The translations under genes were made by a program, and so were the position numbers. A stretch of 53,647 nucleotides of DNA, from the IMG/VR virus record IMGVR_UViG_3300010354_000120, positions 1-53,647 of that record; one strand, written 5' to 3'. The notes below the pieces were generated by a model. The model saw nothing but the letters and a program-made list of their open reading frames with translations, was not told where the DNA came from and searched no databases. Below, in pieces: positions 2,611-28,135 of the stretch (positions within the stretch are counted from its first letter, which is position 1; each line of letters starts with the position of its first letter). The DNA comes from a virus. Taxonomy: Duplodnaviria; Caudoviricetes.

Positions 2611-2940
2611 ATGTTGGGAAAACATTACCTATTAAATCTCTATGATTGCCCCTTTCATCTTTTAAACGATGAAAGGTTTCTTATTGATTTACTGGAGAAC
2701 GCAGCATCTGCGAGTGGGGCAACGGTAGTCCAGACAATCTTCAAAAAATTTGATCCACAGGGTGTAACTGTATTAACTCTTTTGGAAGAAAGTCACATTT
2801 CAATTCACACTTGGCCGGAAACTGGTGAAGCAGCTGTTGACATTTTTACATGCGGAGATGCGAATCCTAAGGTCGGATGTGATATAATTTGTATTCAGTT
2901 GAAATCTGAAAATCACAATATGAGTTACATCGAAAGATAA
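2611..2940 (+). CDS. speD: S-adenosylmethionine decarboxylase proenzyme (pyruvoyl-dependent)
   Basis: GKH, FDPQGVT, LEESHISIHTWPE (E|S autocleavage site), DIFTCG. Confidence 0.93.
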   Translation: MLGKHYLLNLYDCPFHLLNDERFLIDLLENAASASGATVVQTIFKKFDPQGVTVLTLLEESHISIHTWPETGEAAVDIFTCGDANPKVGCDIICIQLKSENHNMSYIER

Positions 2941-2975
2941 CTTAATGGGATTTGGTATAAGATTGATACTATTTT

Positions 2976-2989
2976 GTATAAATTGCTAC
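2976..2989. promoter_or_regulatory. putative NtcA-binding box
   Basis: GTA-TAAATTGC-TAC = GTA-N8-TAC; imperfect second copy GTA-N9-TAC at 2955-2969; lies just upstream of glutamine aptamers. Confidence 0.6.
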
Positions 2990-3007
2990 TAAAAATCAGG
3001 ATTTCGA

Positions 3008-3015
3008 CATAAATA
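3008..3015 (+). promoter_or_regulatory. T4-type late promoter variant
   Basis: CATAAATA (consensus TATAAATA) about 10 nt before the aptamer start. Confidence 0.55.
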
Positions 3016-3025
3016 TATTTGCAAT

Positions 3026-3295
3026 CGTTCATTTACTCTACGGAGTAAACGGAAGTAAGGAGACAGAAGGAACGTAGACGTTCATTACTATCATGTTCGA
3101 AATAGCTCTTCCACTAGTGCTCTCATGTTCCCAGGCAAATATTCTAATGATTAGAATATATGGCAAGGATTATCCGCCAAGAATTGAAAGGGAATTGTTT
3201 AGAGAGATTAAAGATCTCTCACCAAAATGGTGCGAGTGGAGACTCTGGAATGATGCTTAAATGATAGTAACGGAAGTATGCCGCCTGAAGGAACG
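3026..3295 (+). ncRNA. tandem/interlocked glutamine riboswitch (glnA RNA motif-like), two aptamer units
   Basis: Two copies of CGTTCA-[P2 stem]-CGGAAGTA-N8-GAAGGAACG (3026-3074 and 3079-3295); P2a TTTACTC-TACG-GAGTAAA; P2b TTACTATCAT(3085-3094)/ATGATAGTAA(3261-3270); upstream of a DUF4278-type gene. Confidence 0.85.
3093..3260 (+). CDS. 55-aa small protein nested in the P2 loop of the second glutamine aptamer
   Basis: MFEIALPLVLSCSQANILMIRIYGKDYPPRIERELFREIKDLSPKWCEWRLWNDA*; resembles 44080..44271 (LSCSxA...RExI...C). Confidence 0.75.
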   Translation: MFEIALPLVLSCSQANILMIRIYGKDYPPRIERELFREIKDLSPKWCEWRLWNDA

Positions 3296-3326
3296 CTCTT
3301 TTGTTTAGAGCATAGGAGTAACCAAA

Positions 3327-3503
3327 ATGGCAAGAGCTTGTTATCGTGGTGTTTGGTATGACACTGAAACACCCAAGAAGGAATTTGTGGAATGGCATCG
3401 GAATGTTGATGCAAAAGATCATTCATATCGTGGACAGCATTATTATCCCATTCAAACTATGACTGAGGATACTAAAAAGAAAATTTACAAAGGTATGTTC
3501 TAA
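3327..3503 (+). CDS. DUF4278-type small protein (IF17/GifB N-terminal-like)
   Basis: MARACYRGVWYDT...HSYRGQHY, two YRG motifs; SD AGGAG at 3314-3318; downstream of glutamine aptamers. Confidence 0.8.
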   Translation: MARACYRGVWYDTETPKKEFVEWHRNVDAKDHSYRGQHYYPIQTMTEDTKKKIYKGMF

Positions 3504-3616
3504 TGGCAAACGCACTACAGGTAATCGGTGGTATTACACTATTGCAGGTTGTGTTTATATGCTCAATCTCATTCTTTGTATGCAAAATTTGTCCCAACGT
3601 AAGAGGTAAAAAATGA
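3503..3616 (+). CDS. 37-aa hydrophobic micro-protein
   Basis: MANALQVIGGITLLQVVFICSISFFVCKICPNVRGKK*, TAATG coupling to the DUF4278 ORF. Confidence 0.55.
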   Translation: MANALQVIGGITLLQVVFICSISFFVCKICPNVRGKK

Positions 3617-3717
3617 TTACAAATTCTCTAGTTCCACTTCTTATTATCCGCAACAAAATTAATAAAGATAAGAAACTGAAGGATGCTCAACTAATCAGAG
3701 CAATGCAAACCAAATAA
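3613..3717 (+). CDS. 34-aa basic micro-protein
   Basis: MITNSLVPLLIIRNKINKDKKLKDAQLIRAMQTK*, SD GAGG and ATGA overlap; ends just before the terminator. Confidence 0.55.
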   Translation: MITNSLVPLLIIRNKINKDKKLKDAQLIRAMQTK

Positions 3718-3724
3718 ATTTTCT

Positions 3725-3751
3725 GGGGGTCTTGACACCCCCTATTTTTTT
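3725..3751 (+). terminator. intrinsic terminator
   Basis: GGGGGT-CTTGAC-ACCCCC followed by TATTTTTTT. Confidence 0.8.
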
Positions 3752-28031: not shown

Positions 28032-28112
28032 GCGAGAGTGGTGTAACGGTAGCCACGCTGCGCTTAGAACGCAGTGTCGAAAGACGTAGGGGTTCGATTC
28101 CCCTCTCTCGCA
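28032..28112 (+). tRNA. tRNA-Leu (anticodon TAG)
   Basis: Acceptor GCGAGAG/CTCTCGC, anticodon arm CTGCG-CTTAGAA-CGCAG, long variable arm, T-arm AGGGG-TTCGATT-CCCCT, discriminator A, no encoded CCA. Confidence 0.95.
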
Positions 28113-28135
28113 CTTAAGATCATCCGGTATGAATT

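What the first reader, a model, noticed from the sequence alone, without database searches (positions are those of the whole stretch)
3026..3295. Interlocked double glutamine aptamer: two glnA-motif units that share one P3 helix
Seen: two units of CGTTCA-P2-CGGAAGTA-N8-GAAGGAACG. Neither N8 segment can form its own P3 hairpin, but they are complementary to each other: AGGAGACA (3058-3065) pairs with TGCCGCCT (3279-3286) at 6 of 8 positions. The junction between units, GAACG-TAGA-CGTTC (3070-3083), is a perfect hairpin. This gives a pseudoknot-free fold: outer P1 = 3026-3030/3291-3295, a shared P3 flanked by two AGUA/GAA E-loops, and an inner, circularly permuted aptamer closed by the 3070-3083 hairpin. 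Known: glnA-motif glutamine riboswitches (P1, P2, E-loop/P3) occur in cyanobacteria, often as tandems. Inference: this is an obligately coupled, possibly cooperative, two-site glutamine sensor in a phage. I am not aware of this architecture being described.
Basis: partly seen in the sequence, partly recalled or inferred. Interest (0 to 1): 0.9.

Follow-up and report, generated by a model that had tools for sequence, protein, structure and literature searches.

The report
Strand-swapped double glutamine riboswitch holding a gene
A cyanophage leader RNA appears to fold two glutamine-sensing units into one nested structure that shares a helix and encloses a small protein gene, a layout common in cyanophages and not found described in the papers searched.

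Summary
Window 3026-3295 holds two glutamine-aptamer units 4 nt apart. Their 8-nt P3 segments pair with each other at 6 of 8 positions, not with themselves.

These support the swapped fold:
- The "linchpin" base of unit 1 pairs with the base after unit 2's last strand in 118 of 118 (C-G 91, G-C 27).
- The unswapped partner fails in 23 of 118.
- The cross-unit P3 end pair is U-A, A-U, G-C or U-G in 56 of 56. The within-unit pair fails in 18 of 56.
- Most relatives keep only the complementary halves of one E-loop, so neither unit is a complete aptamer alone.
- Ordinary tandems have 6-11-nt linkers and their own P3 stems.

The outer aptamer abuts the ribosome site of a DUF4278 (IF17-like) gene. 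Glutamine binding, cooperativity and the role of the enclosed gene are untested. The window's own units are each complete, so independent folding is not excluded. I rate it a new variant of a known kind.

The parts
3026..3030 (+). Outer P1, 5' strand (CGTTC). Proposed to pair with 3291-3295.
   Evidence: Sequence. Part of the RF01739 hit. The partner is assigned from the linchpin covariation in relatives.
3032..3049 (+). P2 of unit 1: a 7-bp hairpin with a UACG loop.
   Evidence: Rfam alignment. Present in the MFE and centroid folds.
3050..3057 (+). Junction plus E-loop 5' strand of the outer aptamer (CGGAAGTA). G3052 is the proposed linchpin base, pairing with C3296.
   Evidence: Sequence. 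In relatives this base pairs with the base after the last GGAACG in 118 of 118 distinct records.
3058..3065 (+). P3 strand a (AGGAGACA). Pairs with 3279-3286 at 6 of 8 positions.
   Evidence: Cross-pair covariation in relatives.
3066..3074 (+). E-loop 3' strand of the inner aptamer (GAA), then G, then the inner P1 strand GAACG (3070-3074).
   Evidence: The hairpin 3070-3083 appears in the unconstrained MFE and centroid folds.
3075..3078 (+). 4-nt linker (TAGA), the loop of the inner P1 hairpin. U3075 lies opposite G3273 as a G.U inner linchpin.
   Evidence: The pattern allowed linkers of 2-5 nt and the swapped family shows 3-5. Ordinary tandems have 6-11 nt.
3079..3084 (+). Inner P1 strand CGTTC plus the conserved A.
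3085..3094 (+). P2 of unit 2, 5' arm. It overlaps the first two bases of the ORF start codon (3093-3095).
   Evidence: A perfect 10-bp complement of 3261-3270. The arms covary in relatives: the helix is 98.6% paired and 4 of 5 pairs show changes on both sides.
3093..3260 (+). Embedded 55-aa gene of the PHROG 504 kind, function unknown. Predicted as a two-helix hairpin with invariant Cys12 and Cys47.
   Evidence: ORF list. Window against L164: 27 differing codons, 22 of them synonymous, and nucleotide differences by codon position of 8/2/23. PHROG 504 matches 53 of 66 family ORFs; the window's own match is weak at E 0.0077. AlphaFold2 pLDDT 81.7.
3261..3270 (+). P2 of unit 2, 3' arm. It starts right after the ORF stop codon (3258-3260).
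3271..3278 (+). Junction plus E-loop 5' strand of the inner aptamer (CGGAAGTA). G3273 is the inner linchpin base.
3279..3286 (+). P3 strand b (TGCCGCCT).
3287..3296 (+). E-loop 3' strand of the outer aptamer (GAA), then G, then the outer P1 3' strand GAACG (3291-3295), then linchpin C3296.
   Evidence: Covariation.
3296..3326 (+). Expression platform: a CUCU stretch just after the linchpin C that can pair with the Shine-Dalgarno AGGAG at 3314-3318.
   Evidence: Sequence. The same layout is described for Synechocystis gifB in Klahn 2018 (PMC6212724, passages). That the pairing occurs is my inference.
3327..3503 (+). Regulated gene: a 58-aa DUF4278 / IF17-like small protein.
   Evidence: Pfam DUF4278 at 19.8 bits, below the cut-off of 25.3, E 0.0011. 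PHROG 5049 at E 3.1e-16. 70.5% DNA identity to S-PM2 p190.
3725..3750 (+). Terminator-like hairpin plus a T run, at the end of the small-gene cluster.

Best explanation
Window 3026-3295 is a nested, strand-swapped double glutamine aptamer in the leader of a cyanomyophage operon.

Outer aptamer. The 5' half of unit 1 supplies P1 strand 3026-3030, P2, the junction and the AGUA strand. The 3' half of unit 2 supplies the GAA strand, P1 strand 3291-3295 and linchpin C3296. Together they form one canonical type-1 glutamine aptamer. Its P3 is not a hairpin. It is the 8-position duplex 3058-3065 with 3279-3286.

Inner aptamer. The sequence enclosed by that P3 forms a second, circularly permuted aptamer. 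Its P1 is 3070-3074 with 3079-3083, closed by the 4-nt linker. Its P2 is a 10-bp long-range helix that encloses a translated 55-aa gene. Its E-loop sits on the other end of the shared P3.

What is shown:
- the motifs are present;
- the swapped partners covary in relatives;
- the enclosed ORF is under coding selection;
- the locus is syntenic with other cyanophages.

What is inferred by analogy with Synechocystis gifB:
- Glutamine binding fixes the outer linchpin G3052-C3296.
- This pulls the adjacent CUCU anti-Shine-Dalgarno stretch away from AGGAG 3314-3318.
- Translation of the DUF4278/IF17-like gene then turns on.

Further inference:
- The folded sensor hides the embedded gene's start codon in P2.
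- A ribosome translating that gene must unfold the sensor.
- The two genes would therefore be controlled in opposite senses.
For: 1. Motifs and Rfam hit.

2. Linchpin covariation. I examined 118 distinct short-linker relatives: 125 parsed of 129 pattern matches, 119 distinct, 1 unparsed.
- The unit-1 junction base pairs with the base after the last GGAACG as C-G 91 and G-C 27, so 118 of 118.
- The unswapped partner, the first linker base, gives C-G 91, G.U 4 and no pair 23.

3. P3 end pairs, counted on alignment A2. A2 holds 60 of the 118, namely the class with 8-nt P3 strands; 56 rows are distinct.
- Swapped structure: the P3 end pair a8-b1 is UA 37, AU 11, GC 6, UG 2, so 56 of 56. Pair a1-b8 holds in 55 of 56. 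The covariation score is 0.351 against 0.104 in shuffles, and 0 of 500 shuffles reach it.
- Within-unit pairs a1-a8 and b1-b8 each hold in only 38 of 56.

4. E-loop halves. In 114 of 119 relatives unit 1 has a C where GAA should be. In nearly all, unit 2 has AAA (or a similar three bases) where AGUA should be (98 of 119 have AAA; only the window type has AAGTA). Only the swapped combination gives a full E-loop.

5. Rfam's own alignment. On a compact relative (L272) Infernal aligns RF01739 across both units, with a 38-nt insert in the P3 loop, at 32.9 bits.

6. Relatives with two E-loops, like the window, come with other P3 letters that still pair across units.
- GGCCGACG with CGGCGACC: the within-unit pairs would be G.G and C.C.
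- GGTTGACG with CGCCACC: here only the swapped topology satisfies both linchpins (G-C and C-G).
- GGTGAC with GTCTCC pairs at 5 of 6.

7. Control. All 13 distinct ordinary tandems have linkers of 6-11 nt and their own P3 stems of 3-5 bp. The first linker base is C in 12 of 13.

8. Natural deletion. L237 (L238 not inspected) lacks both the 5' half of unit 1 and the 3' half of unit 2, yet keeps both genes.

9. Folding energy of the listed pairs only: swapped -23.1, independent -15.6 or -17.1 kcal/mol.

10. Synteny. The order speD, element, DUF4278 gene, thymidylate synthase gene is shared with S-PM2 and S-SRM01.
Against: - P1 strands are invariant, so no covariation can directly show which CGTTC pairs with which GAACG. 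The swap is deduced from the linchpin and from strand connectivity.
- For the window type itself the linchpin test does not discriminate. The outer pair is G-C and the inner is G.U under the swapped model, and the same two values occur under the unswapped model.
- The window type has only 3 distinct P3 letter combinations. Its position a4.b5 is never a standard pair (A.G, A.A, C.A).
- The a4 change A to C also fits the free position of a GNRA loop (GAGA to GCGA). That loop would belong to a small independent P3 hairpin in unit 1.
- Unit 1 alone scores 45 bits on RF01739. It is transcribed about 220 nt before its swapped partner, so it could fold alone first.
- Constrained whole-region folding does not separate the models: swapped -69.8 against independent -70.3 kcal/mol when the P3 regions are left free.
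- Two P3 positions are mismatched in most relatives: C.A in 50 of 60 and A.C in 47 of 60.
- Relatives share ancestry, so cell counts overstate the number of independent events.
- Nothing here tests ligand binding or regulation.
- The literature passage reports no cooperativity for close tandems.
Confidence: 0.68

Rival explanations
1. Two independent type-1 glutamine aptamers in ordinary tandem. Unit 1 (3026-3074) and unit 2 (3079-3295, with a long P2) each fold alone. Each has a minimal P3 of one G-C pair plus a tetraloop. They act as a 'pseudo-cooperative' pair.
For: - Both units carry every conserved motif.
- Unit 1 scores 45 bits on RF01739.
- Unit 1's loop reads GAGA or GCGA, which fits GNRA.
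- Reviews treat tandem glutamine riboswitches as independent units (PMC9481103 passages).
- Constrained folding with the P3 regions left free gives about the same energy (-70.3 against -69.8).
Against: - The outer P3 pair is A.A in unit 1 and U.U in unit 2. Across units these positions form two A-U pairs.
- The same holds in the other two-E-loop types: G.G and C.C within units, G-C and G-C across.
- The linker is 3-4 nt and starts with U. In 13 of 13 ordinary tandems it is 6-11 nt, and it starts with C in 12 of 13.
- Type C relatives fail both linchpins if unswapped.
- In the large homologous family neither unit is complete alone.
- With the 1-bp P3 hairpins enforced, the independent fold is worse (-64.1).
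Confidence: 0.15
2. An unswapped, pseudoknotted fold. Each CGTTC pairs with the GAACG of its own unit. The two P3 segments still pair across units as a long-range pseudoknot. This makes unit 1 resemble the topology of the glutamine-II riboswitch.
For: - It uses the same helices as the swapped model apart from the P1 partners.
- In glutamine-II the GGAACG strand lies inside the loop of a downstream helix (Rfam alignments).
- For the 91 of 118 relatives with C at the junction, both topologies satisfy the linchpins.
Against: - In all 27 relatives with G at the unit-1 junction, the unswapped linchpin is G.G (21), G.A (2) or G.U (4). The swapped one is G-C in 27 of 27.
- Type C two-E-loop relatives give the same result.
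- The AGUA strand is covalently joined to unit 1's junction, and the GAA strand to unit 2's last GGAACG. A canonical three-way junction is therefore obtained only with swapped P1 partners. This last point is reasoning from connectivity, not a test.
Confidence: 0.08
3. A relic. A former tandem was split when a small gene landed in P2 of unit 2. Only unit 1 works, regulating the embedded gene, and the 3' half of unit 2 is decaying.
For: - Rfam detects only unit 1.
- The ORF start lies 19 nt after unit 1.
- L237 (L238 is its 96%-identical sibling, not inspected) shows that the locus can lose aptamer parts and keep the genes.
Against: - The 3' half keeps all conserved letters in every window-type locus.
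- The P2 arms around the ORF covary, for example TTACTATCAT/ATGATAGTAA in the window against TTACAGTCAAC/GTTGACTGTAA in L164.
- Small ORFs sit in P2 of unit 2 in 77 of 118 relatives and in P2 of unit 1 in 21 of 106, with the core intact.
- The expression platform for the DUF4278 gene directly follows the 3' half.
Confidence: 0.06

Closest known systems
Glutamine-I riboswitch (glnA RNA motif, Rfam RF01739)
   Same: - The conserved letters match: CGTTCA, CGGAAGTA and GAAGGAACG.
- The P1, P2 and E-loop/P3 three-way junction is present.
- The long-range linchpin pair next to P1 is present.
- It lies upstream of a DUF4278/IF17-like gene, with the anti-Shine-Dalgarno stretch right after the linchpin (PMC6212724 passages).
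   Different: - P3 is not a hairpin. It is a duplex between two units.
- A second, circularly permuted aptamer and a protein gene sit inside what would be the P3 loop.
- Most family members fall below Rfam's gathering score. For example S-PM2 scores 33.3 and 24.4 bits against a threshold of 35.
Ordinary tandem glutamine riboswitches (Ames and Breaker 2011, as cited; 157 doublets in Sherlock 2022, PMC9481103)
   Same: - Two aptamer-like units in a row ahead of one gene.
[quoted passage not shown]
   Different: - Ordinary tandems seen here (13 distinct) have their own P3 stems, 6-11-nt linkers and their own G-C linchpins.
- The window's class has 3-5-nt linkers and cross-paired P3 strands. In most members each unit has only half an E-loop.
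- I could not read Ames and Breaker 2011, so I cannot say whether they noted the swap.
Glutamine-II riboswitch (Downstream-peptide motif, RF01704)
   Same: - The ligand-site letters are shared.
- A C-G rather than G-C long-range pair occurs in glutamine-II, as in 91 of 118 relatives here.
- Glutamine-II crystallised as a domain-swapped dimer and works as a two-piece RNA (PMC6698751 and PMC7357161 passages). This shows that strand exchange between such units is physically possible.
   Different: - RF01704 gives no hit in the window and only sub-threshold hits in relatives (24.6-25.9 bits against 33).
- The window has E-loops and no glutamine-II P2 helix.
- The crystal dimer was regarded as an artefact of crystallisation, not as a natural architecture.
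Tandem glycine riboswitch
   Same: Two homologous aptamers, one expression platform, and structural contacts between the aptamers.
   Different: - Glycine aptamers are each complete and touch through tertiary contacts.
- Here the two units exchange strands and share a helix.
- Cooperativity is not shown here.
Leader-peptide attenuators and upstream-ORF control
   Same: A short translated ORF lies inside a regulatory RNA structure, so the ribosome and the RNA fold compete.
   Different: - Here the ORF is a conserved 49-66-aa protein family (PHROG 504), not a codon-sensing leader peptide.
- It lies inside the loop of an aptamer helix.
- In 65 of 75 relatives it ends at a UGA or UAA built from the last P3 base and the E-loop.

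Membership tests
Glutamine-I riboswitch (RF01739) | A score at or above Rfam's gathering threshold. | tested here: met
   Unit 1 (3024-3078) scores 45.0 bits against 35. Unit 2 and the outer aptamer are not reported.
Glutamine-I riboswitch (RF01739) | P1 CGUUC/GAACG, the conserved A, and a P2 hairpin. | tested here: met
   Both units. P2 of unit 1 is 7 bp. P2 of unit 2 is a 10-bp long-range helix with covariation in relatives.
Glutamine-I riboswitch (RF01739) | E-loop strands AGUA and GAA flanking P3. | tested here: met
   Both strands are present in both units. The motif letters are read from the Rfam consensus; the name 'loop E' comes from a PMC6698751 passage.
Glutamine-I riboswitch (RF01739) | A self-contained P3 hairpin. 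| tested here: not met
   Within a unit only one G-C pair forms, and the outer position is A.A or U.U. Singlets with an 8-nt P3 have 2 bp plus a tetraloop, and ordinary tandems have 3-5 bp.
Glutamine-I riboswitch (RF01739) | The long-range linchpin G-C pair next to P1 (G23-C60 in the solved structure, as cited by PMC6212724). | tested here: met
   Outer: G3052 with C3296. Inner: G3273 with U3075, a wobble only. In relatives 118 of 118 are Watson-Crick for the swapped outer pair.
Glutamine-I riboswitch (RF01739) | Selective binding of L-glutamine. | not testable with these tools
   This needs in-line probing or calorimetry.
Ordinary (independent) tandem glutamine riboswitch | Each unit is complete, with its own P3, and the linker carries the unit's own linchpin C. 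| tested here: not met
   The window linker is 4 nt and starts with U, and the P3 segments pair across units. Comparators: 13 of 13 have their own stems and 12 of 13 have linkers starting with C.
Strand-swapped nested double aptamer (family defined here) | A 3-5-nt linker, cross-complementary P3 strands and a swapped outer linchpin. | tested here: met
   The window has a 4-nt linker, 6 of 8 cross pairs and a G-C outer linchpin.
Strand-swapped nested double aptamer (family defined here) | Only one E-loop, with unit 1 lacking GAA and unit 2 lacking AGUA. | tested here: not met
   The window has both E-loops. It belongs to a minority subtype: 4 of 119 distinct records, plus types B, C and D.
Glutamine-II riboswitch (RF01704) | A match to the Rfam model. 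| tested here: not met
   No RF01704 match in 2900-3500 at E up to 10.
DUF4278 / IF17-like proteins (the downstream gene) | Pfam PF14105 at its gathering score. | tested here: inconclusive
   19.8 bits against a cut-off of 25.3, E 0.0011. PHROG 5049 at E 3.1e-16.
PHROG 504 (the embedded gene) | A profile match. | tested here: inconclusive
   The window protein scores E 0.0077 and does not pass at 0.001. Of the aligned family ORFs, 53 of 66 match, the best at 9.2e-31.

The most novel reading that the evidence does not exclude
The element is one two-site glutamine sensor that contains a translated gene and gives opposite outputs for two genes.
- When folded and glutamine-bound, it hides the start of the embedded PHROG-504 gene in P2 and in the inner P1 hairpin. 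At the same time it frees the ribosome site of the IF17-like gene.
- When the embedded gene is translated, the ribosome melts P2 and the junction. In most relatives it also melts the shared P3 as far as a stop codon built into the E-loop, which resets the sensor.

This strand-swapped design, rather than two independent aptamers, would be the normal form of closely spaced 'tandem' glutamine riboswitches. It would be widespread in cyanophages, including S-PM2.
Probability: 0.3. Interest if true: 0.9.

Novelty: new variant of a known kind. Interest (0 to 1): 0.8.

Why it matters
1. It offers a structural answer to an open point. [quoted passage not shown] If the units exchange strands, most of them are not two riboswitches at all. 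They are one nested device.

2. It would be a natural example of a circularly permuted aptamer nested inside the P3 of another. It would also be an example of protein genes sitting inside aptamer helices, so that translation and ligand sensing exclude each other.

3. It changes the picture of riboswitch use by phages. McCown 2017 (PMC5473149 passage) found only two glutamine aptamers in cyanophage genomes. Here a capped scan alone gave 118 distinct copies. Most score below Rfam's threshold, among them the model phage S-PM2.

4. The regulated gene resembles IF17, the inactivator of host glutamine synthetase. The device may therefore let the phage tune host nitrogen assimilation to the glutamine level.

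Tried and rejected
- DNA similarity search of 2950-3500 against isolate phages found only the DUF4278 gene of S-PM2, at 70.5%. It was too insensitive for the RNA.
- Protein searches with the embedded ORF reached only close relatives: 6 loci and 2 clusters. tblastn gave weak hits with E from 0.005 to 9, but these led to the informative isolate loci.
- The first pattern, GAAGGAACG with a 0-12-nt linker then CGTTCA, was mostly chance. Only 15 of 117 loci had aptamer cores on both sides.
Only 2 of 120 were true members: L389, a 3.8-kb contig of a metagenome bin, and L437, a 7-kb contig of a Prochlorococcus single-cell assembly. It therefore says nothing about absence in cells.
- In 300 further genomes of the family of that Prochlorococcus assembly the pattern was not found; it was found in 1 of 301, the assembly itself. 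Read this as 'not found in those searched'.
- Three other AAGGAACG sites in the window are chance matches in coding sequence.
- Whole-region constrained folding does not discriminate between the models.
- Foldseek of the embedded protein's model against the PDB gave no match at E <= 0.001.
- The simple promoter scan found no consensus sigma-70 promoter just upstream of 3026, although many relatives have TTGACT and TATAAT there.
- No RNA holder was listed among the sequencing runs.
- I considered building a covariance model of the nested fold. I rejected it because the window would have been among the training rows.
- Papers. No description of a shared-P3, nested or strand-swapped glutamine riboswitch, or of an ORF inside the aptamer, turned up in the searches, or in the passages read. 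I read passages only, not whole texts. Ames and Breaker 2011 (PMC3127080) is not held. Ren 2015 was not read. Supplements, such as Weinberg 2010 Additional file 1 and the Klahn 2018 tables, were not seen and may bear on the novelty claim.
Full report
**What is in the window**

Every coordinate in the finding is correct. Two units carry the conserved letters of the type-1 glutamine aptamer. Unit 1 runs from 3026 to 3074, and Rfam RF01739 hits it at 45.0 bits against a gathering score of 35. Unit 2 starts 4 nt later, at 3079, but its second half lies at 3261-3295. Rfam does not report unit 2 even at E up to 10.

Between the two halves of unit 2, a perfect 10-bp helix (3085-3094 with 3261-3270) closes a 166-nt loop. 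It is in fact an ORF of 55 codons (3093-3260). Its start codon overlaps the 5' arm of the helix, and its stop codon abuts the 3' arm.

The two 8-nt P3 segments pair with each other at 6 of 8 positions. Within a unit, each could form only one G-C pair, with A.A (unit 1) or U.U (unit 2) at the outer position.

Neighbouring features:
- Upstream lies speD (Pfam AdoMet_dc, 122.7 bits).
- Downstream lie a 58-aa DUF4278-like gene at 3327-3503 (Pfam 19.8 bits, below its cut-off; PHROG 5049 at E 3.1e-16), two tiny ORFs, a terminator-like hairpin at 3725-3742, and thyX.
- ThyX is 81.7% identical to that of the cyanomyophage S-SRM01.

The window is therefore part of a T4-like cyanophage.

**The enclosed ORF is a real gene**

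- Close relatives (L020, L164/L190, L241, and metagenome loci L490 and L493) keep the ORF.
- Against L164, 27 codons differ and 22 of those changes are synonymous. Nucleotide differences fall 8/2/23 by codon position.
- In an alignment of 66 such ORFs only Cys12 and Cys47 are invariant.
- Of those 66, 53 match PHROG 504, a family of unknown function. The window's own match is weak, at E 0.0077.
- AlphaFold2 predicts a two-helix hairpin with pLDDT 81.7. It has no significant match in the PDB.

**A large family of relatives**

Weak tblastn hits with the ORF led to four isolate cyanophages: S-TIM54, DSL-LC02, S-SCSM2R and S-SRM01. All have the same layout, but each unit carries only half an E-loop.
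- Unit 1 keeps the AGUA strand and has a single C where GAA should be.
- Unit 2 keeps GAA and has AAA where AGUA should be.

Together with loci fetched earlier, this gave 125 parsed records, of which 119 are distinct and 118 were fully parsed. In the model phage S-PM2 a compact copy lies between speD and gene p190. A TTGACT/TATAAT promoter sits just upstream of it, and all its Rfam scores fall below threshold (33.3 and 24.4 against 35; 24.6 against 33).

**Tests between the swapped and unswapped folds**

1. The linchpin. In the solved type-1 aptamer a junction G pairs with the C that follows P1 (G23-C60, as cited in PMC6212724).
   - The junction base of unit 1 is C in 91 records and G in 27. 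The base after the last GGAACG of unit 2 is correspondingly G or C, so the pair is Watson-Crick in 118 of 118.
   - The unswapped partner, the first linker base, gives C-G 91, G.U 4, G.G 21 and G.A 2.
   - Unit 2's junction base with the first linker base gives C-G 111, G.U 4 and no pair 3.
   - Unit 2's junction base with the base after unit 2 gives 94 pairs and 24 non-pairs.

2. P3. This was counted on an alignment of the 60 records with 8-nt strands, 56 of them distinct.
   - The cross pair a8-b1 is UA 37, AU 11, GC 6 and UG 2, so 56 of 56. The cross pair a1-b8 holds in 55 of 56.
   - The overall covariation score is 0.351 against 0.104 in shuffles (0 of 500 reach it). It is 0.03-0.06 when partners are slid by 1-3 columns.
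   - The within-unit pairs a1-a8 and b1-b8 each hold in only 38 of 56.
   - In the class with 5-nt strands (45 records), AGTCG pairs with CGACT. There is one compensatory AGTCA/TGACT. No hairpin is possible in that class.

3. Connectivity. AGUA is joined to unit 1's junction, and GAA is joined to unit 2's last strand. Only the swapped combination gives a canonical three-way junction. On a compact relative, Infernal itself aligns RF01739 across both units, with a 38-nt insert in the P3 loop, at 32.9 bits.

4. Control. The 13 distinct ordinary tandems recovered by my first scan have 6-11-nt linkers and their own P3 stems of 3-5 bp. The first linker base is C in 12 of 13.

5. Natural deletion. 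L237 (L238 not inspected) has lost both the 5' half of unit 1 and the 3' half of unit 2. These are exactly the two pieces of the outer aptamer. Both genes are retained.

**The window's own subtype**

Two complete E-loops are rare, at 4 of 119 distinct records. A dedicated pattern found 4 viral and 11 metagenome loci, and a looser one found 2 more. The subtypes are:

| Type | P3 strands | Notes |
|---|---|---|
| Window type | AGGAGACA or AGGCGACA with TGCCGCCT or TGCCACCT | — |
| B | GGCCGACG with CGGCGACC | Compact. One locus lies on a cellular-looking contig with FMO-like, glyoxalase, DUF188 and GST genes. |
| C | GGTTGACG with CGCCACC | Has an embedded ORF and a DUF4278 gene. |
| D | GGTGAC with GTCTCC | — |

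In the window type and in types B and C the outer P3 positions mismatch within a unit (A.A and U.U, or G.G and C.C) and pair across units. Type C has G and C at the two junctions, with C and G as the swapped partners, so only the swapped topology satisfies both linchpins.

For the window type alone the linchpin test is uninformative: one G-C and one G.U occur under either model. The a4 position never pairs, and its A/C change also fits a GNRA loop in an independent unit 1.

Folding energies favour the swap only for the listed pairs (-23.1 against -15.6 or -17.1 kcal/mol). For the whole region they do not (-69.8 against -70.3). I therefore hold the swapped fold as the most likely functional state. 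I leave room for unit 1 folding alone first, since it is transcribed about 220 nt before its partner strands.

**ORFs inside aptamer helices are a family trait**

- P2 of unit 2 is long in 77 of 118 records, and 75 of those 77 hold an ATG ORF of 49-66 aa. In 69 of the 75 it starts 3-5 nt after CGTTCA.
- In 65 of the 75, the ORF reads through the 3' arm of P2, the junction and P3b. It stops at a UGA or UAA made of the last P3 base plus the first two E-loop bases.
- In the window the ORF stops before the 3' arm.
- P2 of unit 1 holds a 61-68-aa ORF in 21 of the 106 records where the 5' end could be found; 12 were unresolved.
- All four combinations of ORF presence and absence occur, and 41 of 118 have a short P2(2) with no ORF (31 lack an ORF in both P2 loops).
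- In the 5-nt-P3 class the linker is GAG-type in 36 of 37 ORF-bearing records and in 0 of 9 without an ORF. This linker makes GGAG about 10 nt before the ATG, which fits a Shine-Dalgarno role.

**Mechanism**

Shown: the motifs, the covarying swapped partners, the coding ORF, and the position of the expression platform.

Inferred by analogy with Synechocystis gifB, where the stretch after the linchpin C masks the ribosome site and glutamine turns translation on (PMC6212724 passages):
- Glutamine fixes G3052-C3296.
- That releases AGGAG at 3314-3318 from the CUCU stretch at 3296-3299.
- The IF17-like gene is then translated.

Further inference:
- The fold hides the embedded gene's start.
- Translation of the embedded gene unfolds the sensor.
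- Whether both sites bind glutamine, and whether they are coupled, is open.

The ligand-site parts named in PMC6698751 are the first P1 pair, the junction G and the long-range pair. All are present in both the outer and the inner units.

**Comparison with what is known, and novelty**

- Glutamine riboswitches and their frequent tandems are known (PMC2864571, PMC9481103). Close spacing and a lack of cooperativity have been noted, with no benefit identified (PMC5066625).
- Glutamine-II crystallised as a domain-swapped dimer that was regarded as non-physiological (PMC7357161).
- One survey found only two glutamine aptamers in cyanophage genomes (PMC5473149).
- In six literature searches and the passages I read, I found no description of a shared P3, a nested or permuted second aptamer, or genes inside the aptamer.
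- The primary paper, Ames and Breaker 2011, and all supplements were not available to me.

I rate the finding a new variant of a known kind, with high interest.

Noticed in passing
L499 585-680 (S-PM2, record AJ630128.1, about 142,317-142,412): The model cyanophage S-PM2 carries a compact nested double aptamer with no embedded ORF. It lies between speD and gene p190, behind a TTGACT/TATAAT promoter. All its Rfam scores are below the gathering thresholds. It looks like a good experimental system.
   Followed up: partly
L237 1440-1690 (L238, 96% identical ORF, was not inspected): A near-identical relative of the window locus in which the 5' half of unit 1 and the 3' half of unit 2 are both deleted. 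The embedded ORF and the DUF4278 gene remain, with the ribosome site directly after the ORF.
   Followed up: partly
21 loci, e.g. L243 955-1190, L038, L247, L322: P2 of unit 1 can also hold a conserved small ORF of 61-68 aa with a hydrophobic start. Its start and stop codons lie in or next to the P2 arms. All 21 of the 21 long P2(1) loops hold such an ORF.
   Followed up: partly
L492 2640-2790 (minus strand), also L487, L489, L494, L497: A compact two-E-loop nested double aptamer occurs on marine metagenome contigs that look cellular. The neighbouring genes are FMO-like monooxygenase, glyoxalase, DUF188 and GST. It lies upstream of a 56-69-aa ORF with no Pfam family, so the architecture is not confined to phages.
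   Followed up: partly
Family-wide, e.g. L243 1355-1375: In 65 of 75 relatives the embedded ORF ends in ...WDAND or ...DAKAD. These residues are encoded by the conserved aptamer core, and the stop codon is built from the last P3 base and the E-loop. Where the E-loop strand is AAA instead of GAA (29 of 119), the stop becomes UAA.
   Followed up: partly
Family-wide: P3 positions a3.b6 and a6.b3: The shared 8-position P3 keeps two mismatches in most members: C.A in 50 of 60 and A.C in 47 of 60. They flank a central C-G/G-C step. This conserved departure from pairing is unexplained.
   Followed up: no
window 28032-28113: A tRNA-Leu gene with anticodon tag (Rfam 56.3 bits; ARAGORN).
   Followed up: no
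window 3503-3717: Two tiny overlapping ORFs follow the DUF4278 gene and precede the terminator-like hairpin at 3725-3742. One is 37 aa and strongly hydrophobic; the other is 34 aa. Similar small ORFs follow the gene in S-PM2 and S-SRM01.
   Followed up: no
L389 and L437/L498 (genome contigs): The only two true family members among 120 genome-collection hits lie on short contigs. One is a 3.8-kb contig of a bin labelled Acetobacteraceae. The other is a 7-kb contig of a Prochlorococcus single-cell assembly. They may be phage DNA binned with cells.
   Followed up: no
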